This document shows positions 7,198 through 53,165 of a stretch of 53,405 nt of DNA, piece by piece. The position numbers were made by a program, and so were the translations under genes. The DNA comes from a virus (lineage: Duplodnaviria; Caudoviricetes). Under the pieces are notes generated by a model, which was not told where the DNA came from, ran no database searches, and saw only the letters and a program-made list of their open reading frames with translations. The stretch spans positions 1 through 53,405 of IMG/VR virus record IMGVR_UViG_3300020593_000094; one strand, given 5' to 3'. Within the stretch, counting starts at the first letter, position 1; each line of letters starts with the position of its first letter.

Positions 7198-7210
7198 GGT
7201 GCGTGATATC

Positions 7211-11987: not shown

Positions 11988-12021
11988 GGGCGCGCGCCCT
12001 CGCCTGCCATGGCCAAGGCCC

Positions 12022-15906: not shown

Positions 15907-15937
15907 GTCTTCCTGACCTGATCGATGAAGGCGAGGC

Positions 15938-18722: not shown

Positions 18723-18733
18723 CGCGGCGGTCC

Positions 18734-21346
18734 TCAGCGGATGCGGTAGGCGAAATCGCCATCCTTGCCCAGGCGTACGGACAGGCTCTGCAGGGGCTTG
18801 CCCTGGGCCATCCGCTCGAGGACGCGCTGGGCCAGCTCCGGCATCAGCGTCCCGGACAGGATGTTGTCGATGTTGCGCGCGCCGCTGTCGACTTCGGTGC
18901 AGCGGGCGGCGATGGCCGGGACCAGCTCGGCGTCGAAGTTCAGGCTGGCCTGGTGGTTGCGCTCGAAGCGCTGGCGCAGGCGCTCCAGCTTGAGCGCGAC
19001 GATGCGCTGCAGCACGGCGTCCTGTACCGGGTAGTAGGGCACGATGCTCAGGCGGCCGAGGAAGGCCGGCTTGAACACCTGGTTGAGGGTGTCACGCAGG
19101 CCCTCGACGATCTCCGCCGGAGCGGGAGCGGCCTCGGTGCCCAGGCACCACTGCATGATCCGCTCGGTGCCGACGTTGGAGGTGAGGATGATCACGGTGT
19201 TGCGGAAGTTGATCTCGCGGCCCTCGCCGTCGTCCAGCACGCCCTTGTCGAAGACCTGGAAGAACAGCTCCAGCACGTCCGGGTGGGCCTTCTCCACCTC
19301 GTCCAGCAGCACCACGCTGTAGGGCTTGCGGCGCACCGCCTCGGTCAGCACGCCGCCCTCGCCGTAGCCGACGTAGCCCGGCGGCGAACCCTTGAGGCTG
19401 GAGACGGTGTGCGCCTCCTGGTACTCGGACATGTTGATGGTGATCAGGTTGCGCTCGCCGCCATAGAGGATGTCCGCCAGGGCCAGGGCGCTCTCGGTCT
19501 TGCCGACACCGCTGGGGCCGAGCAGGAGGAATACGCCGATGGGCTTGTTCGGGTCTTCCAGGCGCGCGCGGGAAATGCGGATACGCTTGCCGATCTCTTC
19601 CAGGGCGTGGTCCTGGCCAAGCACGCGCTCGCCGAGCAGGGATGGCAGGCGCTGTACGGTGTCGATCTCGTCGCGCAGCATCTTGCCCAGGGGGATGCCG
19701 GTCCAGGCGGAGATCACTTCGCCGATGGTGCCGCCGTCGACGCGGGCGTGAACCAATGGCGTCTCGCCCTGCACCTCGGTCAGCTCGGCACGCAATGCCG
19801 CGAGGTCCGCCCGCAGCGCCTCGCCCTCCCCCGCCTCCGCGCGGGCCTCCAATTCGTGCAGGCGCTTGACCAGTTCCAGCTCGCGCTGCCACTGCGCCTT
19901 CAGCACTTCCTCGCGCTGGCGCACCTGTTCCAGGGCGGCCTTCAGTTCGGCCAGGCGCGCTGCATGATCGGCGCCGCTGGCGTTCTCCTTTTCCAGCACG
20001 GAGATCTCGGCGCGCAGGTTGTCGCCTTCACGCAGGCAATCCTCCAGCGTGCCGGGCTGCGCCGCCTGCGCCAGGGCCACGCGGGCACAGGCGGTGTCGA
20101 GCACGCTCACCGCCTTGTCCGGCAACTGGCGACCGCTGAGGTAGCGGCTGGATAGGCGCACGGCCTGGACGATAGCATCGTCGAGCACGGCGACACGGTG
20201 GTGCGCCTGCATCTTCTCCAGCAGGCCACGGAGCATGTGGATGGCGCTGTCCTCGTCCGGCTCTTCCACCTTGACCACCTGGAAGCGGCGGGCCAGGGCG
20301 GCGTCCTTCTCGAAGTACTTCTTGTATTCGGCCCAGGTGGTGGCGGCGATGGTGCGCAGCTCGCCGCGGGCCAGCGCCGGTTTGAGCAGGTTGGCCGCAT
20401 CGTTCTGTCCGGCCTGGCCGCCGGAGCCGATCAGGGTATGGGCCTCGTCGATGAACAGGATGATCGGGTGCAGGCTGCGCTTGACCTCTTCGATCACCTG
20501 CTTGAGACGGTTCTCGAACTCGCCCTTGACCCCGGCGCCGGCCTGCAGCAGGCCCAGGTCGAGGGTATGGATGGCCACGCCCTGCAGCGGGGGCGGCACC
20601 TCGCCCTGGGCGATGCGCAGGGCCAGGCCTTCCACCACTGCGGTCTTGCCGACGCCGGCCTCGCCGGTGAGGATCGGGTTGTTCTGTCGGCGGCGGGTGA
20701 GGATGTCGACCATCTGCCGCACCTCAGCCTCGCGGCCCAATACCGGGTCGATGCAACCTTCGCGGGCGTTGCGCGTCAGGTCGATGGTGTACTGGTCCAG
20801 CGCTGGTGTCTTGCCGCGAGACGCGCCCGGGGCCGCAGTGACAGAGTCCGGTTGCGGCGCGGCCTGGGCCTGCTGCACCTCGCCGCTGGCCTCGGTGAGC
20901 GCCACCAGGTTCAGGCGCAGATCGTCGGGGTTGATCTTCTCCAGTTCGGGCGCGGAGGCCAGCGCCACCCGGCGCAGTTCGGCGTCGTCGAGCAGTGCCT
21001 GGAACAGGTGGCCGCTGCGGATCTGCGCCTCGCCGTATTCGATGGACGCCAGCACCCAGGCGCGCTCGATCAGCCGGGTGATGTGCGGCGACAGTGCCGG
21101 GGTACGGGTGTTACCGGTCTTGAACCCGGCCAGCGCCTGTTGCAGTTGGGCCTGCAGGCGGTCGGGCCGCACTTCGTAGTGACGCAGGATGGCCTGCAGA
21201 TCGTTGCCCTCGGCGTCCAGCAATTGCAGCAGCAGGTGTTCGATGTCGACGTCGTAGTGGCGCTCGGCGAGGCAGAGTCCGGCTGCCCCTTCGGTGGCGC
21301 TGCGGCAGCTGTCGTTGAGCTTGGCGAACAGGGATTTCAGGTTCAC
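18734..21346 (-). CDS. clpV: T6SS AAA+ ATPase ClpV (TssH)
   Basis: Two AAA modules (GEAGVGKT, GPSGVGKT), RRRQNNPIL, GSPPGYVGYGEGG. GTG start overlaps the tssG stop. Confidence 0.96.
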   Translation of the reverse strand: MNLKSLFAKLNDSCRSATEGAAGLCLAERHYDVDIEHLLLQLLDAEGNDLQAILRHYEVRPDRLQAQLQQALAGFKTGNTRTPALSPHITRLIERAWVLASIEYGEAQIRSGHLFQALLDDAELRRVALASAPELEKINPDDLRLNLVALTEASGEVQQAQAAPQPDSVTAAPGASRGKTPALDQYTIDLTRNAREGCIDPVLGREAEVRQMVDILTRRRQNNPILTGEAGVGKTAVVEGLALRIAQGEVPPPLQGVAIHTLDLGLLQAGAGVKGEFENRLKQVIEEVKRSLHPIILFIDEAHTLIGSGGQAGQNDAANLLKPALARGELRTIAATTWAEYKKYFEKDAALARRFQVVKVEEPDEDSAIHMLRGLLEKMQAHHRVAVLDDAIVQAVRLSSRYLSGRQLPDKAVSVLDTACARVALAQAAQPGTLEDCLREGDNLRAEISVLEKENASGADHAARLAELKAALEQVRQREEVLKAQWQRELELVKRLHELEARAEAGEGEALRADLAALRAELTEVQGETPLVHARVDGGTIGEVISAWTGIPLGKMLRDEIDTVQRLPSLLGERVLGQDHALEEIGKRIRISRARLEDPNKPIGVFLLLGPSGVGKTESALALADILYGGERNLITINMSEYQEAHTVSSLKGSPPGYVGYGEGGVLTEAVRRKPYSVVLLDEVEKAHPDVLELFFQVFDKGVLDDGEGREINFRNTVIILTSNVGTERIMQWCLGTEAAPAPAEIVEGLRDTLNQVFKPAFLGRLSIVPYYPVQDAVLQRIVALKLERLRQRFERNHQASLNFDAELVPAIAARCTEVDSGARNIDNILSGTLMPELAQRVLERMAQGKPLQSLSVRLGKDGDFAYRIR

Positions 21347-30427: not shown

Positions 30428-30493
30428 TTTATCTCACAGATAATTTCAAGGCAAGCAAGGTTTATCGTGTCGATTATTTATCAGATAGATAAA
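30428..30493. promoter_or_regulatory. OR operator region: three TTTATC-N5-GATAAA-type palindromes
   Basis: 30428-30444 TTTATC-TCACA-GATAAT; 30461-30477 TTTATC-GTGTC-GATTAT; 30477-30493 TTTATC-AGATA-GATAAA; all between cro and cI. Confidence 0.8.
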
Positions 30494-30511
30494 AGAGGCG
30501 AAAATTTCGCC

Positions 30512-31216
30512 ATGGACATCAACACCGTGCGCAGGGAAAACCTGCGAAAACTCATCCAGCAGGCTCCATCTCAGGCCGAGTTCGCCGACTCGTGCGGAAC
30601 GGCCGCATCGGTCATCAGCCTCATCGTCTCTCCTAACCCAAAGCGAAACCTTGGGGACAGACTCGCGAGAAAGATTGAAGCTGCGCGAGACCTTCCTCAC
30701 GGATGGCTGGATGTGCAGCACCAGGGTCAGGAAGGGATTGATGTTTCCTCACTTCCTGCACCTCTCGCCCAGAAAATCAGCAGTTATCGCGCCAAGGTGA
30801 GCATCGAGCGCTTCGATATAGCCGGTTCGATGGGGCCCGGCACGGAACCGCCGGACCTGCACAACATCGTCGACTCAATGACACTGGATGCTTCCTGGGT
30901 TCGTCAGAACCTGGTCTACACAGCGGTCGAGAACATCAAGCTGATATCCGGCCGGGGCGACAGCATGTCCCCCACCATCAAGAACGGTGACCCACTGCTG
31001 GTGGACGTGGGAATCACGTCGGTGGAATGTGACGCCATCTACTTCTTCATGATGGGGAAGCAGCTGCAAATCAAGAGGATTCAGCGGCATCTGGACGGCC
31101 TCACGGTCCTCTCGGACAACGATCGGTACAAGCCGATCGAAATCGCTGCCGAGCGCGAGGAAGAACTGACGATCTTCGCCCAGGTGATTTACGGCTGGAA
31201 TGGGCAGAAATTCTGA
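30512..31216 (+). CDS. cI: CI-like repressor (HTH + S24 peptidase)
   Basis: N-terminal HTH (RRENLR...ARKIE...GWLD) and GDSMSPTI...IKRI autocleavage domain. Confidence 0.92.
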   Translation: MDINTVRRENLRKLIQQAPSQAEFADSCGTAASVISLIVSPNPKRNLGDRLARKIEAARDLPHGWLDVQHQGQEGIDVSSLPAPLAQKISSYRAKVSIERFDIAGSMGPGTEPPDLHNIVDSMTLDASWVRQNLVYTAVENIKLISGRGDSMSPTIKNGDPLLVDVGITSVECDAIYFFMMGKQLQIKRIQRHLDGLTVLSDNDRYKPIEIAAEREEELTIFAQVIYGWNGQKF

Positions 31217-36672: not shown

Positions 36673-37440
36673 ATGACCCAGAACAACGCCGCTTTCCTCC
36701 ACATGACCGCCGACACGCTCGGCAAGAGCCTGCTGCAGGGCCTGATCCAGGAAATCCGCATCCTGCCGGACGTGTGGCAGAAGCTGTCCGAAGCCAAGCA
36801 GACCGACGTGATCGATCGCCTGGAGCAGCAGGTGCGCAACGCCGCCACCATCGCGGTGCACACCATTGCCGGAGCCGAGCGCGAGACCGTCTACGGCAAG
36901 CTCGAATCCATCGCGGCCAAGGACAAGATGAAGGCCGTGATCGTGGTGAACCACTCCAGCCCGAACAAGCACGACCTGCTCGACGCTGTGAACGAGGACT
37001 GCCTGCTGATCATCGGGGGCGCAGGCGAATTCCTGGGCGGCATGAAGGACGTGAAGGCCGACCCGGACCAGAACCCACTGGACCTGAATGGCGGCGACCA
37101 CGACATGGAAGACCCTGGCGCATGGGGTGGCGACGCACCGAGCGACGACAGCGACGTCGTGGACGCCGAATTCGACGAGGTTCCGCAGCTCACCGTAGAG
37201 CGCTTCGCCGGCCACACCCTGGGCGAGATCGCCATCGGCGTCGCCACCAAGAAGGACGTGTTCGACGCGGCCTGGCTGCAATCGCGCTTTGCCCTCACCA
37301 CTGAAGAGGCCGAGCGCGTCGTTCTCCAGCTGCTGGACCAGGGCGTCATCGTGCTCGAGCAGGAGAACGAGGAATCCCGCGAGCTGAATACCTACCGCGT
37401 CATCAAGAAGCCGGGGGATATCGCCCTCGACCTGGAGTGA
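36673..37440 (+). CDS. Phage protein with FtsK-gamma-like C-terminal winged helix
   Basis: C-terminal AAWLQSRFAL...EAERVV.QLLDQGVI resembles the FtsK gamma domain. Confidence 0.65.
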   Translation: MTQNNAAFLHMTADTLGKSLLQGLIQEIRILPDVWQKLSEAKQTDVIDRLEQQVRNAATIAVHTIAGAERETVYGKLESIAAKDKMKAVIVVNHSSPNKHDLLDAVNEDCLLIIGGAGEFLGGMKDVKADPDQNPLDLNGGDHDMEDPGAWGGDAPSDDSDVVDAEFDEVPQLTVERFAGHTLGEIAIGVATKKDVFDAAWLQSRFALTTEEAERVVLQLLDQGVIVLEQENEESRELNTYRVIKKPGDIALDLE

Positions 37441-37443
37441 GCC

Positions 37444-39189
37444 ATGCGCATCACGAAATTCGAAATCACCAACTTCCAAGGGCTGCGTCATGCGGCCCTT
37501 GATGTTTCTGCGCCGGTGCTGCTGGTGGCCGGTCACAACGGCGCCGGCAAGAGTTCGATGCTGGATGCCATCGCAATGGCTTTCAATGGCCAGCCGCGCC
37601 GTGTCTCGCTGAAGAAGGAGATGGACAAGCTGGTCAGCGAGGGCGCCAAGAAGGGCGAAGCGCACGTCACCTATATTGATGCCGGCGGCGAAGAGCAGAC
37701 CGCGTGGGTGATGCTACCCACCGGGAAGAACGCCCCGCTCGGTGACTCGCCGTTCCTGCCCTACGTGCTCGACGCCAGCCGCTTCGCTGCACTGGATTCC
37801 AAGGAGCGCCGCAAGGTGCTGTTCGATCTGAGCGGCGCCAGCGCCAGCCCGGCGGAGGTCGGCAAGCGTCTGCAAGCCAAAGGCCTGGACCTGAAGCTGT
37901 TCGAGAAGGTGAAACCCCTCCTCCGCTCCGGTTTCCCGGCCGCCGTCGAGCAGGCCAAGGCCTACGCCAGCGAGGCGCGCGGCGCCTGGAAGGCGATCAC
38001 CGGCGAGAACTACGGCAGCGAGAAGGCTGTCGGCTGGGCGCCGGAGCTGGTGGCCACCGTGGTCACCGATGACCAGGTCGCCGAGGCCGGTAAGAACCTG
38101 CAGCTGCTCGAGGACGATCTGGCCGAGGCCCAGCAGGCCCTCGGCGCCAGCAAGCAGGCCCGCCTGGCTGCCGACGGCCGCGCCCAGCGCATCACCAAGC
38201 TGCGCGAGCTGGTCGACCTGGAGCCGCGCCGCCGCAACAAGCTGACCACCGACGAGCAGAACCAGGACGAATGGTCCGAGAAGGTCATGGCCGCCGAGCT
38301 GGCCTCGGCCGGCAGCGTGCCGCACCAGCCGCTGACCTGCCCCCATTGCCAGGGCGCAGTCGACCTGCAGGCCGGGACCCTGGTGGTCCACCAGCCGCCG
38401 GAGCAGATCGCCGACGCGGAAGCCGCCCGCCGGTTGCCCGAATACCGCGAGTATCTGGCCAGCGCCCAGCGCGCCGTCGCGAACAGCCAGCGGGACCTGG
38501 ACGAGAGTCTGGCCGCGGCCGAGCAGATCAAGGCTCTGGAAGCAGAGTCCGTCGACGCGCCCAGCGCCGAAGCCATCGCCAACGGCGAGCAGGCCATCAA
38601 CGAGCTGCGGCAGGCCCGTGACGCGAGCCGCGCGAAGCTGGTGGCCCTGCAGGAAGCCCTTGAGGCCGCCGCCCAGCGCGAGACCTCTATCGCGAAAGCG
38701 CAGGCCGCGCACCAACACGTAGTGGCGTGGACCGGCCTGGCCGACGCGCTGTCGCCGACCGGCATACCGGCGGAGATCCTCGCCGACGCCATCGGCCCGG
38801 TGAACGACACCCTGAAGCGCCTGTCCGGCATTGCCGGCTGGTCGCCGGTGCAGATCAGCGCCGACATCGACGTGACCTTCGGCGGCAGGCTCTACGGCCT
38901 GCTGTCCGAGTCGGAGCGCTGGCGGTGCGACGCGACCATCGCCCTCGCCATCGCGACGATCTCTCCTGTCCTGCGCCTGGTGCTGCTGGATCGCTTCGAC
39001 GTGTTGGACCTGCCGAGCCGCAACCAGGCCATCGCACTGATGCGCGCCATGACCTCCGACCGCGAGATCGACTCGGTGATCGTCGCCGGCACGCTGAAGG
39101 AGCCGATGGCGAAGACGCCGGAATGGCTGCAGGCGGTCTGGATCGACGGCGGGCACATCGCCGGCCACGAGCAGCAGGCAGCGGCCTGA
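37444..39189 (+). CDS. SbcC/Rad50-like ABC ATPase
   Basis: G.NGAGKSS Walker A, coiled coil with central CPHC zinc hook, LLSESE signature, LVLLDRFD. Confidence 0.88.
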   Translation: MRITKFEITNFQGLRHAALDVSAPVLLVAGHNGAGKSSMLDAIAMAFNGQPRRVSLKKEMDKLVSEGAKKGEAHVTYIDAGGEEQTAWVMLPTGKNAPLGDSPFLPYVLDASRFAALDSKERRKVLFDLSGASASPAEVGKRLQAKGLDLKLFEKVKPLLRSGFPAAVEQAKAYASEARGAWKAITGENYGSEKAVGWAPELVATVVTDDQVAEAGKNLQLLEDDLAEAQQALGASKQARLAADGRAQRITKLRELVDLEPRRRNKLTTDEQNQDEWSEKVMAAELASAGSVPHQPLTCPHCQGAVDLQAGTLVVHQPPEQIADAEAARRLPEYREYLASAQRAVANSQRDLDESLAAAEQIKALEAESVDAPSAEAIANGEQAINELRQARDASRAKLVALQEALEAAAQRETSIAKAQAAHQHVVAWTGLADALSPTGIPAEILADAIGPVNDTLKRLSGIAGWSPVQISADIDVTFGGRLYGLLSESERWRCDATIALAIATISPVLRLVLLDRFDVLDLPSRNQAIALMRAMTSDREIDSVIVAGTLKEPMAKTPEWLQAVWIDGGHIAGHEQQAAA

Positions 39190-39238: not shown

Positions 39239-39955
39239 ATGAAGCCCATCATCTTCGACACCGAGACCACCGGCACCGACCACCAGACCGACCAGATCAT
39301 CGAGGCGGCCTGGCTGGAGCTCGCCGATAACCCGAGCCAGCTCGACGAGATCCGCTCACCCGAAGAACTTCCGTTCTATCACGAGCGCTTCAAGCCGACG
39401 GTTCCGATCAGCCTCGGCGCCCAGGCCGTGCATCACATCATCTGCGAGGACCTGGTTGGCTGCCGCGAGTCGAAGGAGTTCGCCCTGCCCGCCGGCCAGA
39501 TCCTGATGATCGGCCACAACGTCGACTTCGACTGGCGCATGGCCGGCGAAAACCCGGCTATCAAGCGCATCTGCACCCTGGCGCTGAGCCGCTTCCTGTT
39601 CCCGGACAAGGACAGCCACACCCAGTCCGCCATGATGTACCTGATCGGCCGCCGCTTCGGCCGTGAGGCATGGGCGCGCGACCTGCTTCGCAACGCCCAC
39701 GCCGCGCTCGACGATGTCCGCAACTGCGCCATCGTGTTGCGATTCCTGCTCCGAATCGCAAAGGAGTCCGGCCACTCGGTCGACACCTGGGAAGAGGTCC
39801 ACGCGCTGAGCGAGAAGGCGCGCATCCCGACGGTCATGCCCTACGGCAAGCACAAGGGCACGCCGATCAACCAGGTTCCGAGCGACTACAAGGCGTGGCT
39901 CCTGCGCCAGCCCGACGTCGATCCCTACCTCGTCCAGGCGCTACGCGCGCGCTGA
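39239..39955 (+). CDS. DnaQ-family 3'-5' exonuclease (exonuclease X-like)
   Basis: FDTETTG, GHN..FD, AH.ALDD; C-terminal MPYGKHKG......VP.DY..WLL. Confidence 0.9.
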   Translation: MKPIIFDTETTGTDHQTDQIIEAAWLELADNPSQLDEIRSPEELPFYHERFKPTVPISLGAQAVHHIICEDLVGCRESKEFALPAGQILMIGHNVDFDWRMAGENPAIKRICTLALSRFLFPDKDSHTQSAMMYLIGRRFGREAWARDLLRNAHAALDDVRNCAIVLRFLLRIAKESGHSVDTWEEVHALSEKARIPTVMPYGKHKGTPINQVPSDYKAWLLRQPDVDPYLVQALRAR

Positions 39956-40040
39956 TCCGCCACCAGGGCGCCGCAACGGCGCCCAGCACCACGAGCCGAC
40001 CCCATGGAATGCAAGATCACCCCCTCACGCCGGGCGGAGG

Positions 40041-40184
40041 ATGCTGCGCGCCATCGCCTGGGGCTCCTGCTCCTGGTACGGCTACCAGACCAACCGCGAC
40101 ACCCGCTATGCGGCCTTCATCGGCTGCATGGTGCGGGTGGACCAGCAGTGGATCCCACGCAACGAGCTGCGCGTCCTGCAGTGA
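40041..40184 (+). pseudogene. Short ORF or possible gene remnant
   Basis: Frame MLRAIAWGSCSWYGYQTNRDTRYAAFIGCMVRVDQQWIPRNELRVLQ has strong GC3 codon usage but a poorly spaced RBS; out of frame with ATG 40004. Confidence 0.4.
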
Positions 40185-40250
40185 GCAACCTCCTGCCGCT
40201 TCCACGAGGCGGCAGTGGGATGCGACGAGCATCAACACCCCCTTGGTATT

Positions 40251-40274
40251 GCCCGGCCCCGGCCGGGCCTTTTT
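40251..40274 (+). terminator. Intrinsic terminator upstream of the DGR cassette
   Basis: GCCCGGC-CCCG-GCCGGGC followed by CTTTTT. Confidence 0.6.
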
Positions 40275-40302
40275 ACTCCCAGTCGAGCACAAGGACAGCA
40301 CC

Positions 40303-40788
40303 ATGACCGAGATCATCACCAGCATTTCCGCTGCAGCACTTCCGGCCCGCGGCCAGCCCCTGGCCGGCGGCACCTTCATCGAGCGCTACTGGCTGAACAA
40401 CCAGGAGCGCGCCCTGATCCTCCTCGGCGCCGAGCACGACCTCTTCGGCGCCTACGGCGAATATGGCCAGGACATCGCCGGCGCCGGCCACTACGTCGAC
40501 GGCGAGGCGAACACCCGCGCCATGGCCGAGGCCGGCAGCGAGCTCGCCAAGAAGGCCCTGGAGCTGGCCGCCCACATCCCGGCCTGTCTGGAGGGCCAGT
40601 TGATCATGGCGGCCAAGCACGCCGGCCTGATCACCGACCTGCGCGAGGACCGCTGCTACTGGCTCAGCACGCAGCGCTCCGCCTACCGCGCCTACGGCAT
40701 GGGCTTCGAGGATGGCTGGCAGCACTACAACGGCAAGCACGCCGAGCTGCTCGTCCGCCCCGTCCGCAGCCTGCCCATCCTTCAGTGA
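40303..40788 (+). CDS. DGR target protein 1 (DUF1566/CLec-type, 161 aa)
   Basis: ATG 40303 after AAGGA; P..GQP..GG.F, DG..NTRAM, YW.STQ...AY...F..G......K.....VRPVR; C-terminus encoded by VR1. Confidence 0.9.
   Translation: MTEIITSISAAALPARGQPLAGGTFIERYWLNNQERALILLGAEHDLFGAYGEYGQDIAGAGHYVDGEANTRAMAEAGSELAKKALELAAHIPACLEGQLIMAAKHAGLITDLREDRCYWLSTQRSAYRAYGMGFEDGWQHYNGKHAELLVRPVRSLPILQ
40670..40770 (+). repeat. DGR variable repeat VR1
   Basis: 101-bp ungapped match to 42077-42177 with 11 differences, all at template adenines. Confidence 0.95.
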
Positions 40789-40906
40789 TCCACTGATTCA
40801 TTCCTTCTCCAGCAGGCGATTCGCGGGACCGCGCCCACCGCGGTCAGACCAGAAGCATGCCGGGCAAGCGCCGGCCGCCTGCGCCCTATTCCGTTGAGGA
40901 CCTCCC

Positions 40907-41506
40907 ATGCAAGCGAAGCAACTGCCCGCGCTGAAGATCGGGCGCCTGAACCACCTGACCATCAACTTCCACGGGGCCGACCTGGTCGCCGAACCGTTCC
41001 AGGCCGCCATGCTCAGCACCATCGAGACGGCCAGCAGCGTTCCGCCGCTCGGCAACTACTGGCCCGGCGAGGGCGGCCACAATGTCGGCCTGATGCGCGG
41101 CGAGAATGGCGGCCGCGACTACTACCTGATCGTCGCCAGCGGCCCGGCGGCGGAGGTTCGCGCAGCCTATGGCGGCCACGGTCACGAGACCGAGAGTGCC
41201 GACAGCGCCAGCGACGGCCTGGCGAATACCCGGGCCCTGCTGGCCGACAGCAAGGCGCACCCTGCCGCGAAATGGGCCTCGGAATACACCGCCGACGGCC
41301 ACAGCGACTTCTACCTGGGCGCGCGGCGCGAGAACCAAATCGCCGAGGCGATCGCTCCCGAGCTCTTCAGCAAGGGCTACCACTGGTCGAGCACGCAGCG
41401 CTCCGCCGACGACGCCTACCTCATGGACTTCGAGGATGGCTGGCAGCACTTCTACGACAAGTACGCCGAGCTGCTCGTCCGCCCCGTCCGCAGAAAATAC
41501 ATCTAG
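40907..41506 (+). CDS. DGR target protein 2 (DUF1566/CLec-type, 199 aa)
   Basis: P..G.YWPGEGG, DGLANTRALL, HPAA.WA, DGHSDFYL..RRE, HWSSTQ...VRPVRR; C-terminus encoded by VR2. Confidence 0.92.
   Translation: MQAKQLPALKIGRLNHLTINFHGADLVAEPFQAAMLSTIETASSVPPLGNYWPGEGGHNVGLMRGENGGRDYYLIVASGPAAEVRAAYGGHGHETESADSASDGLANTRALLADSKAHPAAKWASEYTADGHSDFYLGARRENQIAEAIAPELFSKGYHWSSTQRSADDAYLMDFEDGWQHFYDKYAELLVRPVRRKYI
41394..41494 (+). repeat. DGR variable repeat VR2
   Basis: 101-bp ungapped match to 42077-42177 with 9 differences, all at template adenines. Confidence 0.95.
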
Positions 41507-41563
41507 TCCTTCAATCCTTCATTCATGGGCGCGCCAGCGCCCTCGCTTTTCGAGGTAGCCAGG

Positions 41564-41920
41564 ATGGCGCTGCACACCGAACTCGAGATCCACCGCAGTG
41601 CCGAGGAACTCCTCGGCGTGGTCCTTGCCCTGGTAAGGCACATCCCGCGGGACATGAAGCAACTCATCGGCGGGAAGCTCCGCGACGAGAGCCTGCAGGT
41701 CCTGGTGCTGATTGGCCGGGCGAACATGTCCCGGAACAAGCGCCAGCACCTGGATGATCTCCTCGAAAGCATCTGGATGATCAATCAGCTGCTGCGCGCG
41801 ATGGTGAACGAGCGATTCATCAGCATCCCGCAGCAAGCCAGGGCCATGAAGCTGACCGCTTCCATCGGCCGCCAGGCCAACGCATGGAAGAAAGCCACCG
41901 CAACCGCGCCCGTTGCTTGA
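41564..41920 (+). CDS. avd: DGR accessory variability determinant (four-helix bundle)
   Basis: 118-aa basic helical protein (L.IH....EL......LVRHIPRD.K..IG.KL....L.....I.RAN...IGRQ..AWKK) between target and template repeat. Confidence 0.85.
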   Translation: MALHTELEIHRSAEELLGVVLALVRHIPRDMKQLIGGKLRDESLQVLVLIGRANMSRNKRQHLDDLLESIWMINQLLRAMVNERFISIPQQARAMKLTASIGRQANAWKKATATAPVA

Positions 41921-42076
41921 GGGTTACGGCCCTCCTGCCTGCGCGCCAAATCTGGTCGTGCCGCTGCCCGGTTGGGCACCGCCATGCGCACCCACAGGGA
42001 CCACCGGCTACCGGCGAGGCCTGGCGCAGTTTCTCCGTTGAGCAATCGGCGGGGCGACGTGGATAGCACGATAGGT

Positions 42077-42177
42077 CGCAGCGCTCCGCCAACAACGCCT
42101 ACAACATGGACTTCGAGGATGGCTGGCAGAACAACAACGACAAGAACGCCGAGCTGCTCGTCCGCCCCGTCCGCAGA
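42077..42177 (+). repeat. DGR template repeat TR
   Basis: Contains 7 AAC triplets in the target reading frame and 27 adenines in total; lies between avd and the RT remnant. Confidence 0.95.
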
Positions 42178-42178
42178 T

Positions 42179-42475
42179 TTGACGGTTGCCCCTTTCACCT
42201 TCGAGGACCTGGCCCAGGCCTACTTCGACTGCCGCCGCCACAAGCGAAACACCAACAGCGCGCGGCGCTTCGAGCTGAACCTCGAGGAGAACCTGCTGGA
42301 CCTGCACGACGAGCTGCCGGCCTTCCAGGTGAAGCCCGCTGGCAAGGGCTTCTTCCACATCGTCGACACCGCCAGCGGCAAGGTCTGCGGCTTCCGGCGC
42401 GGCCACCAGCAGGCGCTCGACCGCGCCGAGGTGCTCACCATTCGCAAGCGCGACGACCTGGGGACGGAAGGCTGA
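42179..42475 (+). pseudogene. DGR reverse transcriptase N-terminal remnant (to ~42316) fused in frame to the 3' part of an unrelated small phage gene
   Basis: FTFEDLAQAYFDCRRHKRNTNSARRFELNLEENLLDLHDEL is RT domain 0. It is followed by PAFQVKPAGKGFFHIVD... and a stop; no YxDD core in the cassette. Confidence 0.85.
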
Positions 42476-42789
42476 TGGCAAAGACTCAGCAGGAGCGCTC
42501 CGCCAAGGCTGCGGCGAAGCGCGCAGAGGTCGGCGAGGAGGAACTGCGGCACAGGGTTCGCCCCGGCGTGCTGGCCAAGCTGGAGGACCTGATGCAGTGG
42601 GGCGGCATCGAGCAGAAAGCCGAGGCCGTGCAACTGCTGATTCTCAATGTGCATGCCCTGGGGCCGGACGGCGCCGCGCAGCTCCTCACCGTTCCGCGCC
42701 ACGAAATCGCGATCAGCGAAAGCGTGGCGCGCAGGCTTGAAGCGGAGGGCCGGCGCGAGGCTGCCGCCCTCGACCGGAGCGACGAGTGA
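42475..42789 (+). CDS. Hypothetical phage protein
   Basis: MAKTQQERSAKAAAKR...; ATG overlaps the upstream TGA. Confidence 0.75.
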   Translation: MAKTQQERSAKAAAKRAEVGEEELRHRVRPGVLAKLEDLMQWGGIEQKAEAVQLLILNVHALGPDGAAQLLTVPRHEIAISESVARRLEAEGRREAAALDRSDE

Positions 42790-42896
42790 TCGGTGCCGCC
42801 GGACAGGCGCATCGATAAGCCTCCCCGAGACACTCCTTACGCCGGATAGGCGATGCCACGGCACGGCTTATCGACGGATATCTACCTGGAGAAACC

Positions 42897-43985
42897 ATGA
42901 CGCCAGCCCACCAGATACTGGTCGGCGACTGCCTGGAGCTGCTCCGGGCGATGCCCGACGAATCGGTGCACTGCTGCATCACCAGCCCACCTTACTTCGG
43001 CCTGCGCGACTACGGCATGGCCGGCCAGATCGGCCTCGAACAGACGCCCGCCGAGTTCGTGTCGCGCCTGGTCGAGGTCTTCCGCGAAGTCCGCCGTGTG
43101 CTGCGCGACGACGGCACCCTCTGGGTGAACATGGGCGATAGCTACGCCAGTGGTGGCCGAGGCGGTGGCGGAACCTTCATGGCCGAGCGTGGTGACGGTG
43201 CCTGGAAGGGCCGCAGCGAGGCCTCCGGCTGGCGATCTGCGCCGCAAGGCCTCAAGCACAAGGACTTGGTCGGCATCCCCTGGCGGCTGGCGTTCGCCCT
43301 GCAGGACGACGGCTGGTATCTGCGCCAGGACATCATCTGGCACAAGCCAAACCCCATGCCTGAGAGCGTGCGCGACCGCTGCACCAAGGCTCACGAATAC
43401 CTGTTCCTGCTCAGCAAGTCGCCGCGCTACTACTTCGACCGCGAAGCGATTGCAGAGCCCCTGGCGCCAGCATCTGTTGCACGTCTGGCCCAGCCCGGCT
43501 GGGAAGACCAGCAAGGCTCGGCCAGGGTGCCGGGGAAAGCCAACGGAGCCATGAAGGCCGTGGGCGGCAGCCGGAGCAGGCGCTACAGCTTCGCCCGGGA
43601 GACCAAGAGTACCGCCGGAACCCACGGCCAGAAGGCGCAGCACCGGCCTGACCGCCCCGACATCGACTACAGCGCCACGCGGAACAAGCGCAGCGTCTGG
43701 TCGGTGCCAACCGGCGGTTTCCGCGGTGCGCACTTCGCAACATTCCCGCCCGACCTGATCCGCCCGTGCGTCCTCGCCGGCGCGCCGCGCGACGGCCTGA
43801 TCCTCGACCCATTCGGCGGCGCCGGCACCACCGGCCTTGTCGCCATGCAGGAGGGGCGCCGCTCGGTGCTCCTCGAACTCAATCCCGAATATGCCGCGAT
43901 CGCTCGCACCCGCCTGGCTGCTGCCTGGCTGGAGGGCGCCGCGCAGATGGATGTCCTTCTGGACCACAAGGAGCCCGCCGCATGA
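42897..43985 (+). CDS. Orphan beta-class amino-DNA methyltransferase (N4-C/N6-A)
   Basis: TSPPYFGLRDY, HFATFP, LDPFGGAGTT. Confidence 0.92.
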   Translation: MTPAHQILVGDCLELLRAMPDESVHCCITSPPYFGLRDYGMAGQIGLEQTPAEFVSRLVEVFREVRRVLRDDGTLWVNMGDSYASGGRGGGGTFMAERGDGAWKGRSEASGWRSAPQGLKHKDLVGIPWRLAFALQDDGWYLRQDIIWHKPNPMPESVRDRCTKAHEYLFLLSKSPRYYFDREAIAEPLAPASVARLAQPGWEDQQGSARVPGKANGAMKAVGGSRSRRYSFARETKSTAGTHGQKAQHRPDRPDIDYSATRNKRSVWSVPTGGFRGAHFATFPPDLIRPCVLAGAPRDGLILDPFGGAGTTGLVAMQEGRRSVLLELNPEYAAIARTRLAAAWLEGAAQMDVLLDHKEPAA

Positions 43986-48960: not shown

Positions 48961-49000
48961 CTCATGCGGCGCCGGTACGCCGGCGCATTGAGGCATTGCT

Positions 49001-49213
49001 ATGCGAAAAGAACTCATCAAGATCAGCGAGTTCCAGCGGCGCCGCTGGGGCACCAATGGAACACCACTGTCCGGCCAGGCAATCCGCAATCAGCTCAGGG
49101 ACGGCATTCTCCCGGGCGAACGGATCGGCAAACTCTGGTTCGTCGACTGGACGGCGTTCAGCAAGTCGACCAGCAACGACCTGGTCGCCATGGTCCTTCG
49201 AGGAGCAGCGTGA
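49001..49213 (+). CDS. xis: Putative excisionase
   Basis: 70-aa basic HTH-like protein (G.LPGERIGKLWFVD) overlapping the integrase start. Confidence 0.75.
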   Translation: MRKELIKISEFQRRRWGTNGTPLSGQAIRNQLRDGILPGERIGKLWFVDWTAFSKSTSNDLVAMVLRGAA

Positions 49214-50325
49214 TGTCGCCTCGTCCACGGAACAAGGCCAACAAGGGGCTCCCCGAGAACCTCTACCTGGACTCAAGGCGCGGGACCTACCGCTACAGAA
49301 GGCCGACGGATGGAAAGTGGTTCCCCTTTGGCACCGACCGGGCCAAGGCAATCAACGCGGCCAAGCAGTTGAACATGGAGTTCATTGGCGGGGCCGACCT
49401 GGTGTCCAAGGTGAAAGGCGGATCCACCGACCTGTTCGTCGACTTCATCGACCACTACAAGGAGAAAATCCTCCCGCCGCGCGAACTGGCGAAGGGCACG
49501 CTCGATCTGTACGAAGTGCGGCTCCGGCAATTCAGGAAGGCCTGGCCCGCCCATGCGGTCAACGAGATCACCATCCGCATGATCGCGGACCTGCTCGACA
49601 GACTGACACCCCGGGCAGCAAACCAGGCCCGGGCACTTCTGGTCGACATCTTCAACCACGCCGTGGCGAAAGGCCTGTGCCCGGACAACCCAGCCATCTG
49701 CACCATTCCGAAGATCGAGAAGAAGCAGCGCAAACGGCACACTGTAGAGGGGCTTCGGGCAATTCGCGAGAAGGCGCCAGCCTGGCTGCAGAACGCGATC
49801 GACCTGGCGCTGATCACCGCCCAGCGCCGGACCGACATCCTGGCCATGCGATTCGACGACGTTCGCGACGGGTTTCTGTACGTTGTCCAGCAGAAGACGG
49901 CCAAAGCCAGCGACGCGGCCTGGATTCGCTTCCGGGTGACGCCCGAGCTCCAGACCGTGCTCAGCAGGTGCCGGGACAACATCCCGTCCCCCTTCCTGAT
50001 TCACCGCAGGCCAGAACGGAAAAAGCAAAAGCAGGCCGAGCAGAAGGAGCACTGGACGAAGATCGAGGAGCGCTACCTGACCAGGGCCTTCAAGGAAGCC
50101 AGGGACACGGCAGGCTGTTATGCGGGGTGGAGTGAAGAGGAGATGCCGGGCTTCCATGAGGTCAGGGCGCTGTCGCTGCACCTGTACAAGAAAGCCGGAA
50201 AGGATGGGCAGAAGATCGCCGGCCATGCCAGCGAGGATATGACGAAAAACTATCAGCGCGACCACGAAGAAGTGGTCTGGGCGGACGCGATTCCGGACCT
50301 GGATATCAGCGAATTCGCCCGATAG
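49213..50325 (+). CDS. int: Prophage tyrosine integrase (lambda-like)
   Basis: LP.NLY arm-binding domain; catalytic R (AQRRTDI), H..R (FHEVRAL), GH, Y (MTKNY). Confidence 0.93.
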   Translation: MSPRPRNKANKGLPENLYLDSRRGTYRYRRPTDGKWFPFGTDRAKAINAAKQLNMEFIGGADLVSKVKGGSTDLFVDFIDHYKEKILPPRELAKGTLDLYEVRLRQFRKAWPAHAVNEITIRMIADLLDRLTPRAANQARALLVDIFNHAVAKGLCPDNPAICTIPKIEKKQRKRHTVEGLRAIREKAPAWLQNAIDLALITAQRRTDILAMRFDDVRDGFLYVVQQKTAKASDAAWIRFRVTPELQTVLSRCRDNIPSPFLIHRRPERKKQKQAEQKEHWTKIEERYLTRAFKEARDTAGCYAGWSEEEMPGFHEVRALSLHLYKKAGKDGQKIAGHASEDMTKNYQRDHEEVVWADAIPDLDISEFAR

Positions 50326-51997: not shown

Positions 51998-52064
51998 CGA
52001 AAAACCAGATACCTCGCAGCTTTGTGGCCATGACAAATACTACAACTAAGCTCTCAGATAAGTA

Positions 52065-53165
52065 CTAAGACTTCCCTATTATCCCCCTCACAACCTTGTC
52101 ACTTACAAGCAAATCAATCATATAACCTTGAACATCCTCACTATCACACTTGATCCCCAGGCCATTCAGCCTAAAAAGAACTTTATCTAGCACCTTATCA
52201 ACAATAGCCACAGCCTCAACACGAGAGCGAAATGGAGCACTCTCTCGCAAAACAGCTATAAATTCATTTCTAATAGTACTTTTACGCTCACCCTCAACCT
52301 TTGCCTTTCCATATCCACCTGCACGCGCCCTTTCACGATAAGCTCTTGACTCATCTGGATACAGACTCCGACGTATATTTAGATATTTACAGGCACGCTT
52401 CCGAGCATTCCTATAGCCGACCATATCGCCCACCCTCAAGTGAAAGTATGCGTCTGCCACGGAAACTAAGATAAGCTCCACCAAACAATCCTCATGCTTT
52501 TTACTGCACGCTTTCTTATCAGCCATGGAAATTAAATTATTTACATAATCAGAACAAAAGCCTCCACTCTCATCTATCACTTCCAATTTCTCAACCAAAA
52601 GCCGCCTCACAAATCTTGAATTTATCCCAAGCCCATGATTCGCCTCACCATCAGGCAAGAAAATATATTCAACAAGAAGGCAAAGCCTCTTAAAACTCTC
52701 AAATTCCGGCGTCCCCATCAAGCTCTTAAACTCGTCATCATTAAAATCCAAAAATTCGTCCATGACTTTTTGCGCAACGAATAAAGAAGCAATTTCAAGC
52801 TCATACTCACTATCGCTCTTTAAATCCCTCATCAGATATACGGCCTCTTCAAAGGAATACCAATCGACCACCCCATCCGGTGCAATTTCTTCCTCAGGAT
52901 CAACCTGTTCAACTAAAAAGTAAGCACATGTCCCACTTCCTCCAAAATATACACCATCCCCAGCAGATGTGACCCTAACTCTTATTCTGGCCTCATCGAA
53001 AACCGCTGCAACAATCGCGCTATCAGGTGTTTCATTACCAGACAATTCAGTCCGTATAAAATACCCCCCGACAGGTCCAGGCCTTCTGCGCAGCAATACA
53101 CGAGAATTAGAGCCGACTATAATTGCCAAATACTGTTTAGCTTCTGGAATATTCAAGTTCAACAA
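52065..53165 (-). CDS. Low-GC hypothetical protein with degenerate NUDIX-like N-terminal domain
   Basis: AIIV....RVLLRR then GNETPDSAIVAAVFDEARI resembles a Nudix box lacking the RE..EE core. Confidence 0.55.
   Translation of the reverse strand: MLNLNIPEAKQYLAIIVGSNSRVLLRRRPGPVGGYFIRTELSGNETPDSAIVAAVFDEARIRVRVTSAGDGVYFGGSGTCAYFLVEQVDPEEEIAPDGVVDWYSFEEAVYLMRDLKSDSEYELEIASLFVAQKVMDEFLDFNDDEFKSLMGTPEFESFKRLCLLVEYIFLPDGEANHGLGINSRFVRRLLVEKLEVIDESGGFCSDYVNNLISMADKKACSKKHEDCLVELILVSVADAYFHLRVGDMVGYRNARKRACKYLNIRRSLYPDESRAYRERARAGGYGKAKVEGERKSTIRNEFIAVLRESAPFRSRVEAVAIVDKVLDKVLFRLNGLGIKCDSEDVQGYMIDLLVSDKVVRGIIGKS

What the first reader, a model, noticed from the sequence alone, without database searches (positions are those of the whole stretch)
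40303..41506. DGR targets are small cytoplasmic early proteins, not tail fibres
Seen: both targets (161 and 199 aa) lack signal peptides, TM segments and fibre repeats. They sit in the pL-type early operon among recombination genes, an exonuclease, two orphan methyltransferases and YejK, far from structural genes. They share DG..NTRA and W.STQ motifs but are divergent outside the VR. Known: the classic phage DGR diversifies a receptor-binding protein through a CLec fold. Inference: this could be an intracellular hypervariable binder pair, possibly a heterodimer with two variable surfaces, for example neutralising host defence proteins or rival phages. The function is unknown.
Basis: inference. 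Interest (0 to 1): 0.8.

Follow-up and report, generated by a model that had tools for sequence, protein, structure and literature searches.

The report
Decayed phage DGR, small early targets
A temperate Pseudomonas-type phage carries a now-disabled hypermutation cassette whose two small lectin-fold target proteins lie among early, non-structural genes, which suggests that this group of phages diversifies a binder used inside the cell rather than a tail fibre.

Summary
Positions 40303-42176 hold a diversity-generating retroelement (DGR): two targets (161 and 199 aa), bAvd, an RT-15 RNA and a 100-nt template repeat. All 19 template/variable-repeat mismatches fall on template adenines.

Both targets are single-domain Lcl_C/DUF1566 C-type-lectin folds. 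T1 matches the Legionella Lcl C-terminal domain at Z 13.4. Neither has a signal-like or membrane segment.

They lie in the cI-side early arm, between RecT/exonuclease genes and two methyltransferases, YejK and integrase. That is at least 14 kb from the packaging genes and on the opposite strand.

The finding does not mention that a ~1.3 kb deletion removed the reverse transcriptase. Contigs from two independent studies bridge the junction. The two variable regions are therefore frozen here.

The layout is a conserved class. Of 80 related viral loci, 72 have two or more targets and 56 have Avd plus a full RT. It also occurs in isolated phages Haboob, Cruim01, phPA-G and Magia.

RT-less homologues occur in D3, Medea1 and the virulent jumbo phage PA5oct. 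In PA5oct the gene lies in the early-transcribed terminal repeat and is not among the structural proteins named there.

An intracellular early binder is the best reading (about 0.5). Its ligand is unknown.

The parts
40251..40268 (+). Terminator-like GC hairpin followed by a T run, 35 nt upstream of the T1 start codon
   Evidence: 7 GC pairs, loop 4, T run. Shared with close relatives L006, L007 and L009, but present in only 5 of 70 family loci overall.
40303..40788 (+). DGR target 1 (T1), 161 aa, a single Lcl_C/DUF1566 C-type-lectin-fold domain
   Evidence: ORF. (phrog_4245, 7.7e-26). (Lcl_C 17.1 bits, below the 34.9 cut-off). (model pLDDT 97.2). (8q4e_A Lcl C-terminal domain: Z 13.4, rmsd 2.2, 114 aligned).
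40670..40769 (+). Variable repeat 1 (VR1), the last ~33 codons of T1
   Evidence: 90% identical to the TR, with 10 of 10 mismatches at TR adenines.
40827..40845 (+). GC-rich inverted repeat downstream of VR1 (candidate DGR target-recognition hairpin)
   Evidence: 7-bp stem, 5-nt loop. No equivalent follows the TR. Function inferred from the BPP-1 DGR (recalled).
40907..41506 (+). DGR target 2 (T2), 199 aa: a ~44-aa variable, low-confidence N-terminus followed by an Lcl_C/DUF1566 C-type-lectin-fold domain
   Evidence: (phrog_4245, 3.1e-29). (Lcl_C 21.4 bits, below cut-off). (287 homologues, many named 'DUF1566 domain-containing protein'). (pLDDT 75.7; residues 1-44 and the VR loop are low). (4eps_A Z 9.1; 8q4e_A Z 8.5).
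41394..41493 (+). Variable repeat 2 (VR2), the last ~33 codons of T2
   Evidence: 91% identical to the TR, with 9 of 9 mismatches at TR adenines.
41527..41542 (+). GC-rich hairpin downstream of VR2 (candidate target-recognition hairpin; overlaps the avd start)
   Evidence: 6 GC pairs, 4-nt loop.
41525..41920 (+). Accessory variability determinant (bAvd), 131 aa, intact
   Evidence: PF22296 bAvd, 45.5 bits against a cut-off of 40, E 1.2e-11. (NF033474, 2.3e-10, below cut-off). (84-89% identical to Avd of L006-L008).
41904..42078 (+). RT-15 RNA motif: structured non-coding element directly 5' of the TR
   Evidence: RF03018, 152.3 bits against a gathering score of 82, E 1.2e-37, full length. The same element is annotated between avd and RT in phage Cruim01.
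42077..42176 (+). Template repeat (TR); 7 AAC codons in the frame of the targets
   Evidence: The AAC count was read from the sequence.
42179..42475 (+). Chimeric ORF: a short N-terminal remnant of the DGR reverse transcriptase fused in frame to the 3' end of a downstream small ORF. Deletion junction at about 42301-42322.
   Evidence: 41-aa match, 70% identity to the Haboob RT; about 46 codons by my reading of the translation. (no Pfam domain). (about 1.3 kb missing relative to L006 and L007, with short imperfect repeats at the junction). (contigs from runs X5 and X6 bridge the junction with 0 differences).
42475..42789 (+). Small conserved protein (phrog_5439, 104 aa) that travels with the cassette
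   Evidence: 1.4e-38. A homologue is found in 30 of 80 related viral loci, usually just upstream of T1. No Pfam, PADLOC or NCBIfam hit.

Best explanation
This is a decayed member of a conserved class of diversity-generating retroelements. The class sits in the early, cI-side (pL-type) arm of lambdoid temperate phages of Pseudomonas, with a similar cassette in Burkholderia phage Magia.

In intact relatives, the RT and Avd copy the TR RNA (which carries an RT-15 leader) with errors at adenines. The copy is written into the last ~100 nt of two tandem paralogous genes. Seven AAC codons on the ligand-binding face of a minimal C-type-lectin (Lcl_C/DUF1566) domain are rewritten.

The targets have no signal peptide, lipobox, membrane segment or virion-anchoring domain. 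They are co-transcribed in direction with recombination, DNA-methylation and integration genes. I therefore infer that they act in the cytoplasm early after infection or induction, as variable binders. The most likely ligands are polymorphic host proteins, such as defence components. Each phage genome would carry one variant pair that is tested at the next infection.

In this record a ~1.3 kb deletion removed the RT. The two variants are frozen unless a related RT acts in trans.

Shown: DGR anatomy, A-specific mutagenesis, fold, absence of export features, genomic context, RT deletion and conservation of the class. Inferred: cytoplasmic location, early timing in this phage, and the ligand.
For: DGR anatomy and activity in the family:
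- In the window, 19 of 19 TR/VR mismatches are at TR adenines.
- Across the 70 sources with Avd (67 viral loci, the window, Haboob and Cruim01), 1721 of 1925 substitutions are at A. The 58 with a full RT all have 2 or more VRs.
- bAvd scores above the Pfam cut-off. The RT-15 RNA scores 152 bits.
- Members of the same 90% cluster differ from T2 at 8 residues, 7 of them in the VR; and at 13 residues, 7 in the VR.
- The highest-entropy columns of the T2 family are 169, 172, 181-183, 186 and 187.

Fold:
- T1 model pLDDT 97.2.
- T1 hits in VIA-align: Lcl C-terminal domain Z 13.4 (rmsd 2.2, 114 aligned), BACOVA_04982 Z 12.7, Bd2740 C-terminal domain Z 9.9, Mtd Z 6.6.
- T2: Z 9.1 and 8.5 to the first two.

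No export or anchor features:
- Hydropathy as given.
- Of 9 longer relatives scanned, 6 show Lcl_C as their only hit, 1 adds a weak below-cut-off coiled-coil hit, 1 has only a weak below-cut-off DNA_pol3_beta_2 hit and 2 have none. None shows a tail-fibre or export domain.

Context in the window: CI-like repressor, HNH, exonuclease, RecT, SMC-like ATPase, RNase T exonuclease, T1, T2, avd, TR, phrog_5439, two methyltransferases, YejK, integrase, all on the + strand. Packaging and head genes are on the - strand.

Same arm in isolated phages:
- Haboob: CI ... T1 T2 avd RT ... Bet.
- Cruim01 and phPA-G.
- Magia: nuclease, RecT, ATPase, regulator, terminator, lectin-fold target, avd, RT, integrase.
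- Among 80 viral loci, every homologue found was co-oriented with the targets. CI-like lies upstream in 11, integrase downstream in 11, methyltransferase homologues occur in 17 and portal homologues in 0. Only homologues of this window's proteins were sought.

Independence from virion type and from lysogeny:
- T1 homologues occur in 26 phage records. These include Detrevirus D3 and PMG1, jumbo Wroclawvirus phages, and records named vB_PaeP and vB_PaeS.
- Magia is described as a myophage (PMC7883833, passages read).

Timing and location of a homologue:
- PA5oct EST35_0104 (47.5% identical to T1; 44.4%) lies in the 39,080-bp terminal repeat.
- The paper states that most genes gp34-gp105 there are highly transcribed at 5 min and are early genes. 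It names only gp39, gp48 and gp51 as structural in that stretch (PMC7318152, passages read).

Targets are kept without an RT: PA5oct, D3 and Medea1 have no RVT_1 domain, while Haboob and Magia served as positive controls.
Against: - There is no direct evidence on localisation, timing or ligand for T1 or T2 in any phage.
- Every characterised structural relative is an extracellular adhesin or receptor-binding domain: Lcl C-terminal domain, a Bacteroides pilus protein, a Bdellovibrio fibre tip and Mtd.
- The PA5oct statement says 'most genes'. Per-gene expression and mass-spectrometry tables are in supplements I could not open. The equation of gp104 with locus tag EST35_0104 rests on the paper's count of 105 genes in the repeat.
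- T2 has a 44-aa N-terminal extension of unknown role, modelled with low confidence. It could dock onto something, including a virion.
- In D3 the homologue sits about 730 bp downstream of cI on the same strand. That position also fits lysogen-expressed genes.
- No signal-peptide predictor was available, so non-classical export cannot be excluded.
- PADLOC and NCBIfam give no hint of a defence-related family.
Confidence: 0.5

Rival explanations
1. Lysogen-side protection. The variable lectin-fold proteins are made from the prophage and bind components of superinfecting phages or other invaders. This would be a DGR-based exclusion or defence sensor that benefits the lysogen.
For: - The cassette is always on the cI strand. 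In some phages it is close to cI: D3 orf68 lies about 730 bp downstream of cI. In Haboob the order is CI, glycosyltransferase, two small ORFs, T1. CI-like lies 2-6 kb upstream in 11 of 80 loci.
- DGR-based immunity has been proposed in print (PMC10053308, results section and passages read).
Against: - Homologues are carried by virulent jumbo phages, in a region the PA5oct paper describes as early-transcribed.
- In this window the cassette lies 9 kb downstream of cI. It follows the recombination genes and a terminator-like hairpin.
- No PADLOC match.
- No membrane or periplasmic features of the kind seen in known exclusion proteins.
Confidence: 0.15
2. Virion-associated accessory adsorption proteins. 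The small lectin domains attach non-covalently to the tail or capsid and vary host recognition, as in the classic phage DGR, even though they are encoded away from the structural genes.
For: - Phage DGR targets are mostly tail proteins (PMC8144416, passages read).
- The fold relatives are adhesins and Mtd.
- The Magia authors suggest host-range alteration (PMC7883833).
- T2 has an N-terminal extension that could dock.
Against: - T1 has no anchoring domain; it is one domain of 161 aa.
- The genes lie in the early arm on the strand opposite to the packaging and head genes.
- The same family occurs in phages of different taxa and morphotype names, so no common virion partner is evident.
- The PA5oct homologue is not among the structural proteins named in the terminal repeat.
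Confidence: 0.1
3. Extracellular action after lysis. The proteins accumulate in the cytoplasm and are released at lysis. Outside the cell they bind variable surface glycans or exopolysaccharide on neighbouring cells or debris, for example to mask receptors.
For: - The Lcl_C-type domains that have been characterised bind extracellular ligands (titles of entries).
- This route needs no signal peptide.
Against: - An early-operon position is unexpected for a product needed only at lysis.
- A released protein would not favour the phage genome that encodes the useful variant, which weakens selection for a DGR (inference).
Confidence: 0.08
4. Functionless relic. With the RT gone, the targets are leftovers drifting towards loss and no longer do anything.
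For: - The RT is deleted here.
- RT loss or truncation inside the held DNA also occurs in L032, L047 and L049.
- CheckV rates the record 64% complete.
Against: - Both ORFs, avd, the RT-15 RNA and the TR are intact.
- The RT-less form is identical in contigs from two independent studies.
- Plaque-forming phages keep the targets without any RT: Medea1, D3 and PA5oct.
Confidence: 0.05

Closest known systems
Bordetella phage BPP-1 DGR (Mtd, Avd, TR, Brt)
   Same: Adenine-specific TR-to-VR rewriting. Gene order target, avd, TR, RT. VR at the C-terminus of a C-type-lectin fold (Mtd 1yu0_A is Z 6.6 to T1). GC hairpins downstream of the VRs.
   Different: Mtd is a 381-aa tail-fibre tip protein with N-terminal trimerisation domains, encoded with the tail genes (recalled). 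Here there are two targets of 161 and 199 aa, essentially lectin domain only, in the early arm. The RT is deleted.
Legionella pneumophila DGR target LdtA and other 'category d' DUF1566/CLec2 targets (Wu et al. 2018, PMC5758913)
   Same: Same domain family (DUF1566/Lcl_C). The paper notes that about half of category d targets are short and consist of DUF1566 alone (passage read).
   Different: LdtA is a surface lipoprotein with an export signal. T1 and T2 have no signal, lipobox or N-terminal Cys. They are phage early-region genes. The paper does not describe that context in the passages I read.
Burkholderia phage Magia DGR (MT701587; PMC7883833)
   Same: Same module order: nuclease, RecT, AAA ATPase..., terminator, short lectin-fold target(s), Avd, RT..., integrase. 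The RT is 66% and the Avd 43% identical to the Pseudomonas ones. The authors noted targets in 'relatively short reading frames'.
   Different: The Magia targets are shorter (120 and 154 aa) and gave no tblastn match to T1 or T2. The announcement interprets the system as host-range adaptation and does not discuss the early-operon location.
Bacteroides type V pilus and related adhesin DGR targets (structure 4eps_A, BACOVA_04982)
   Same: Among the closest solved folds (Z 12.7 to T1, Z 9.1 to T2). DGR diversification of such pilus adhesins is reported (abstract of 10.1101/2024.11.15.621889 in the listing).
   Different: Those are C-terminal domains of exported multi-domain pilus proteins of cells. 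They are not free-standing phage early proteins.
Cellular DGRs with cytoplasmic targets (cyanobacterial regulators, PMC7517822; putative antigen sensors, PMC10907252)
   Same: Precedent that DGRs can diversify intracellular proteins (abstracts seen in the listing).
   Different: Those targets are large multidomain cellular signalling or conflict proteins. Here they are minimal lectin domains encoded by phages.

Membership tests
Diversity-generating retroelement (DGR) | TR/VR repeat pair whose differences fall on template adenines | tested here: met
   19 of 19 mismatches are at TR adenines for the two VRs. The chance of this is about 1e-11.
Diversity-generating retroelement (DGR) | DGR-clade reverse transcriptase encoded beside the TR | tested here: not met
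   Only a 41-aa N-terminal match remains. No RVT_1 domain occurs in the whole record. About 1.3 kb is deleted relative to L006 and L007. The element is a DGR remnant, not an autonomous DGR.
Diversity-generating retroelement (DGR) | Accessory protein Avd | tested here: met
   PF22296 bAvd, 45.5 bits against a cut-off of 40.
Diversity-generating retroelement (DGR) | VR at the C-terminus of a target ORF with a C-type-lectin fold, using AAC codons in the TR | tested here: met
   The VRs are the last ~33 codons of both ORFs. The folds are shown. Seven AAC codons were read.
Diversity-generating retroelement (DGR) | IMH and hairpin recognition elements 3' of the VR and absent from the TR | tested here: inconclusive
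   GC hairpins occur at 40827-40845 and 41527-41542, and none follows the TR. Their function is not testable here.
Lcl_C / DUF1566 (PF07603) | Pfam score at or above the gathering cut-off (34.9 bits) | tested here: not met
   T1 scores 17.1 bits and T2 21.4 bits. Many close homologues do carry precomputed PF07603, and sources name them DUF1566.
Lcl_C / DUF1566 (PF07603) | Fold of the Lcl C-terminal domain | tested here: met
   T1 against 8q4e_A: Z 13.4, rmsd 2.2, 114 aligned. T2: Z 8.5. The profile of the T2 family hits the 8q4e_A sequence at E 1.8e-5.
Mtd-type phage receptor-binding DGR targets | N-terminal domains that build or attach to the tail fibre | tested here: not met
   T1 is one domain of 161 aa. 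T2 has only a 44-aa low-confidence N-terminus. No fibre domain appears in Pfam or PHROGs.
Mtd-type phage receptor-binding DGR targets | Encoded with tail or structural genes | tested here: not met
   The early arm is on the + strand. Terminase, portal and protease are on the - strand at 21.8-26.2 kb.
Exported or lipoprotein DGR targets (LdtA-like) | Signal peptide or lipobox | tested here: not met
   No hydrophobic N-terminal stretch and no N-terminal Cys in T1 or T2. In the family alignments, 0 of 39 and 0 of 36 members are above the threshold. This was a simple hydropathy test only; no dedicated predictor was available.
Known anti-phage defence proteins (PADLOC-DB) | Match to a defence-system model | tested here: not met
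   No hit for T1, T2, Avd or phrog_5439 at E <= 0.001.

The most novel reading that the evidence does not exclude
Temperate Pseudomonas and Burkholderia phages use a DGR as a phage-side adaptive counter-defence. The cassette would generate libraries of minimal cytoplasmic lectin-fold binders, expressed early. Each variant pair is tested against the polymorphic immune proteins of the next host. The binder gene has also spread to virulent jumbo phages. Their RT-less copies still differ mainly in the VR, which raises the possibility that resident prophage DGRs rewrite the copies in trans, or that the copies are exchanged by recombination.
Probability: 0.2. Interest if true: 0.9.

Novelty: new variant of a known kind. 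Interest (0 to 1): 0.62.

Why it matters
Phage DGRs are usually read as host-range devices acting on tail fibres (PMC8144416; PMC10743442 abstract). Here the targets are free-standing lectin domains in the early operon. This class is widespread: 210 of 220 pattern matches in IMG/VR were confirmed as relatives. Homologues are also kept by RT-less and virulent phages.

This opens a testable possibility: that targeted hypermutation is also used inside the cell, for example against host immunity. Several cultured phages with intact cassettes (Haboob, phPA-G, Cruim01, Magia) make the test straightforward.

The proteins are also very small natural hypervariable scaffolds. T1 is a 161-aa single domain modelled at pLDDT 97. 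That may be of interest for binder engineering.

Tried and rejected
- Heterodimer test: complex prediction on T1 plus T2 residues 44-199, with alignments, scored 0.00 and 0.01 against a mark of 0.32. The verdict was 'no answer'. It is not evidence either way, and the heterodimer idea stays untested.
- Foldseek against the PDB with the T2 model found nothing at E <= 0.001. VIA-align found the fold.
- Conserved terminator upstream of the cassette: a hairpin plus T run lies within 200 nt of the first target in only 5 of 70 loci, against 11 of 700 random windows. It is a local feature of the window's close relatives. Magia has an annotated terminator in the same place.
- Sigma-70-type promoter scan of 39800-42950: 0 sites, with 0.3 expected.
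- PADLOC and NCBIfam gave nothing for T1, T2 or phrog_5439.
- Expression from public runs: two metatranscriptome runs (X16, X19) hold only short contigs (about 35-250 nt laid) over parts of the stretch. The tool warns that these may be DNA or relatives, so they show no transcription. Parts without cover mean nothing.
- ESM Atlas returned only Lcl_C/DUF1566-type clusters.
- Literature: eight searches. The HbP1 search returned only unrelated papers. The papers on Cruim01, phPA-G and Medea1 do not mention the retroelement in their main text. None of these searches found a paper that describes DGR targets in a phage early operon or proposes an intracellular role for them. Supplements were closed. 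Wu et al. Table S1 and the PA5oct Tables S2 and S5 may bear on this.
Full report
**What is there**

The window is a 53,405-bp IMG/VR virus record, linear, with a CheckV completeness estimate of 64%. The two ORFs of the finding are at 40303-40788 (T1, 161 aa) and 40907-41506 (T2, 199 aa).

The last ~100 nt of each ORF repeats a third copy further downstream. VR1 is 40670-40769, VR2 is 41394-41493 and the TR is 42077-42176. The VRs differ from the TR at 10 and 9 positions, and all 19 are TR adenines. With about 26.5% A in the TR this has a chance of about 1e-11. In the targets' reading frame the TR carries seven AAC codons (read).

Between T2 and the TR lie two further parts. One is an intact bAvd gene at 41525-41920 (PF22296, 45.5 bits against a cut-off of 40). 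The other is a full-length RT-15 RNA motif at 41904-42078 (RF03018, 152 bits against a gathering score of 82). GC hairpins follow both VRs, at 40827-40845 and 41527-41542, but none follows the TR. This is the anatomy of a DGR.

**The RT is gone**

No RVT_1 domain exists anywhere in the record. Right after the TR, an ORF at 42179-475 begins with a 41-aa match to a DGR RT (70% identical to the Haboob RT), about 46 codons by my reading of the translation. It then continues as unrelated sequence.

Against the closest relatives, L006 and L007, the window is collinear up to 42322. It resumes about 1.3 kb later in their coordinates, with a short imperfect repeat at the junction. L007 has a 363-codon RT ORF there.

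Contigs from two runs of two studies bridge the junction with no differences. These are X5, record 14, 42148-42913, and X6, record 23, 42147-42402. Neither run is flagged as a possible source of this DNA. The deletion is therefore real and has spread. Avd, the RT-15 RNA and the TR are intact, so only an RT supplied in trans could still drive diversification.

**What the targets are**

By sequence both are weak Lcl_C/DUF1566 matches, below the Pfam cut-off: 17.1 and 21.4 bits against 34.9. Both match phrog_4245, of unknown function.

T2 has 287 homologues at E <= 1e-3 among 606 candidates. Most are 190-208 aa, from Pseudomonas, and named 'DUF1566 domain-containing protein' by their sources. T1 has 271 cluster representatives at E <= 1e-3 among 1.84 billion.

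The AlphaFold models behave as follows:
- T1 has a mean pLDDT of 97.2.
- T2 has a mean pLDDT of 75.7. Residues 1-44 and the VR loop are low and the core is above 90.

VIA-align against 48,161 PDB representatives gave these matches for T1:
- Legionella Lcl C-terminal domain: Z 13.4 (rmsd 2.2, 114 aligned).
- Bacteroides fimbrial protein 4eps_A: Z 12.7.
- Bdellovibrio Bd2740 C-terminal domain: Z 9.9.
- Many animal C-type lectin domains at Z 6-8, and Mtd at Z 6.6.

For T2, the same top two chains scored Z 9.1 and 8.5. A profile of the T2 family also finds the Lcl C-terminal domain by sequence at E 1.8e-5. Both targets are therefore minimal C-type-lectin-fold proteins of the DUF1566 branch. The DGR paradigm of a CLec scaffold holds. 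What is missing is everything else.

**No export or anchoring parts**

- The maximum 19-residue hydropathy is 1.15 for T1 and 0.73 for T2.
- T2 has no cysteine. T1 has two, neither near the N-terminus.
- In the family alignments, 0 of 39 and 0 of 36 members have an N-terminal 12-residue stretch above 2.0.
- Of nine longer relatives scanned, none shows a tail-fibre or export domain. Six show Lcl_C as their only hit, one adds a weak coiled-coil hit, one has only a weak DNA_pol3_beta_2 hit, and two have none.

This was a simple test, and no dedicated signal-peptide predictor was available.

**Context**

The + strand arm runs as follows:
- CI-like repressor, 30467-31216.
- HNH endonuclease, YqaJ-type exonuclease and RecT.
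- phrog_6576 and an SMC/Rad50-like ATPase.
- RNase T exonuclease and a 47-codon ORF.
- Terminator-like hairpin, 40251-40268.
- T1, T2, avd and TR.
- phrog_5439.
- N6/N4 methyltransferase and C5 methyltransferase.
- NA37/YejK.
- Integrase, 48964-50325.

The - strand arm holds a CII-like regulator, a P-like helicase loader, small and large terminase, portal and head protease.

**A conserved class**

A pattern scan of IMG/VR confirmed 210 of 220 stretches as relatives, and 80 loci were kept. Among these 80:
- 72 have two or more target genes.
- 67 have Avd, and 56 have Avd plus a full-length RT.
- 30 have a phrog_5439 homologue and 17 a methyltransferase homologue.
- 11 have a CI-like gene upstream and 11 an integrase downstream, on the same strand.
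- None has a homologue of this window's portal.
- Every hit was co-oriented with the targets.

Only homologues of this window's proteins were sought.

Across the 70 sources with Avd (67 viral loci, the window, Haboob and Cruim01), 1721 of 1925 TR-to-VR substitutions are at A. All 58 with a full RT have two to four VRs. One locus, L069, is not A-biased. A few extra copies look decayed.

Close relatives in the same 90% cluster differ from T2 mainly in the VR: 7 of 8 and 7 of 13 changed residues. The most variable columns of the family are the AAC positions. So the class is or was recently active.

The same layout occurs in four cultured phages:
- Haboob.
- Cruim01.
- phPA-G.
- Burkholderia phage Magia, where the order is nuclease, RecT, ATPase, regulator, terminator, lectin-fold target, Avd, RT, integrase.

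RT loss or truncation inside the held DNA also occurs in L032, L047 and L049.

**Homologues without any DGR**

T1 finds 26 phage records, all from Pseudomonas. They include:
- D3 (orf68, about 730 bp downstream of cI) and PMG1.
- Several ~287 kb virulent Wroclawvirus jumbo phages, including PA5oct.
- Medea1, which keeps two DUF1566 genes next to two methyltransferases.

PA5oct, D3 and Medea1 have no RVT_1 domain. Haboob and Magia, used as controls, do.

The PA5oct homologue, EST35_0104, lies at 37081-37572 inside the 39,080-bp terminal repeat. The PA5oct paper states that the repeat holds 105 genes. It says most genes gp34-gp105 are highly transcribed at 5 min and are early genes. It names only gp39, gp48 and gp51 in that stretch as structural (PMC7318152, passages read; per-gene tables are in closed supplements).

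This is the only experimental hint on timing and location for the family, and it points to an early, non-virion role.

**How it most likely works**

In intact relatives, RT and Avd copy the TR RNA with errors at adenines and write the copy into both targets. This varies the ligand-binding face of a free-standing lectin domain.

The proteins have no export or anchoring parts. They sit in the early arm next to recombination and DNA-methylation genes. The family is used by phages of several taxa, including virulent ones. I therefore infer cytoplasmic action early in infection.

A variable binder implies a variable ligand. Polymorphic host defence proteins are the most attractive candidate, because a variant is expressed from the incoming genome and selected at that infection. 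That step is pure inference.

My sub-confidences are:

| Claim | Confidence |
|---|---|
| DGR remnant | 0.97 |
| Single-domain Lcl_C-type lectin fold | 0.95 |
| Early and non-virion | about 0.65 |
| Counter-defence specifically | about 0.25-0.3 |

The rivals are lysogen-side exclusion, a virion accessory protein, action after lysis, and a functionless relic. They are set out with their evidence in the Rival explanations section.

**Comparison with what is known**

Short DUF1566-only targets are a recognised DGR target category (Wu et al. 2018, PMC5758913). DUF1566 is called the commonest Pfam domain in DGR targets (PMC6642488). The Magia announcement noted targets in 'relatively short reading frames' and suggested host-range adaptation (PMC7883833). 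Large surveys state that viral targets are mostly tail proteins (PMC8144416). DGR-based immunity has been proposed for cells and prophages in general terms (PMC10053308).

My eight searches found no paper that describes this early-operon class or proposes an intracellular role for phage DGR targets. Supplements were closed.

I therefore rate it a new variant of a known kind. The element, fold and domain are known. The placement, the minimal architecture as a conserved phage class and the implied site of action are not described.

**Verdict**

It is a good, testable lead because cultured phages with intact cassettes exist.

Noticed in passing
L088 (PA5oct) 2995-3486; L091, L092, L093 295-786: The T1 homologues of virulent jumbo Wroclawvirus phages differ from each other mostly in the VR-equivalent end. 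Compared with PA5oct, 26-34 of 45-62 nucleotide differences lie in the last 120 of 492 nt. Against the TR of Haboob or phPA-G, PA5oct's end differs at 17 positions, 15 of them TR adenines. PA5oct has no RT. Possible causes are trans-diversification by resident prophage DGRs, or VR exchange by recombination.
   Followed up: partly
window 42475-42789 (phrog_5439): A 104-aa protein of unknown function travels with the cassette. A homologue occurs in 30 of 80 related loci, usually directly upstream of T1. Here and in L006 and L007 it is downstream of the RT position. It has no Pfam, PADLOC or NCBIfam hit.
   Followed up: partly
window 2726-21346, - strand: Downstream of the head protease, the expected capsid and tail genes were not recognised. 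There is an 870-aa ATP-dependent-protease-like protein (phrog_4871). There are ORFs of 1294, 447 and 237 aa without PHROG hits, and one of 917 aa matching only unknown-function PHROGs. A 1017-aa protein has a DNA-methyltransferase region. CheckV rates the record 64% complete. The prophage may be defective or a hybrid.
   Followed up: no
L069 7553-9045: In this one locus the TR/VR mismatches are not adenine-biased: T 7, A 2-5, G 2, C 2-3 per copy. The TR may be misassigned, or the repeats may have decayed.
   Followed up: no
L090 (Medea1) 6959-9120: The plaque-forming phage Medea1 keeps the phrog_5439-like gene and two DUF1566 genes, but has a 164-aa hypothetical protein where avd, TR and RT would be. 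Adenine and cytosine methyltransferases follow.
   Followed up: partly
window 52001-53000: GC content drops to 0.42 with strong negative GC skew (-0.43) at the right end of the record, beyond the integrase. This is probably host flank or an attachment-site region.
   Followed up: no
window 37444-39189: The SMC/Rad50-like ATPase next to RecT matches the N-terminal ATPase heads of several defence ATPases in PADLOC (PtuA, AriA, GajA, MADS3), but only over about 50-80 residues. The same gene sits beside RecT in Magia. It is more likely a recombination partner than a defence gene.
   Followed up: no
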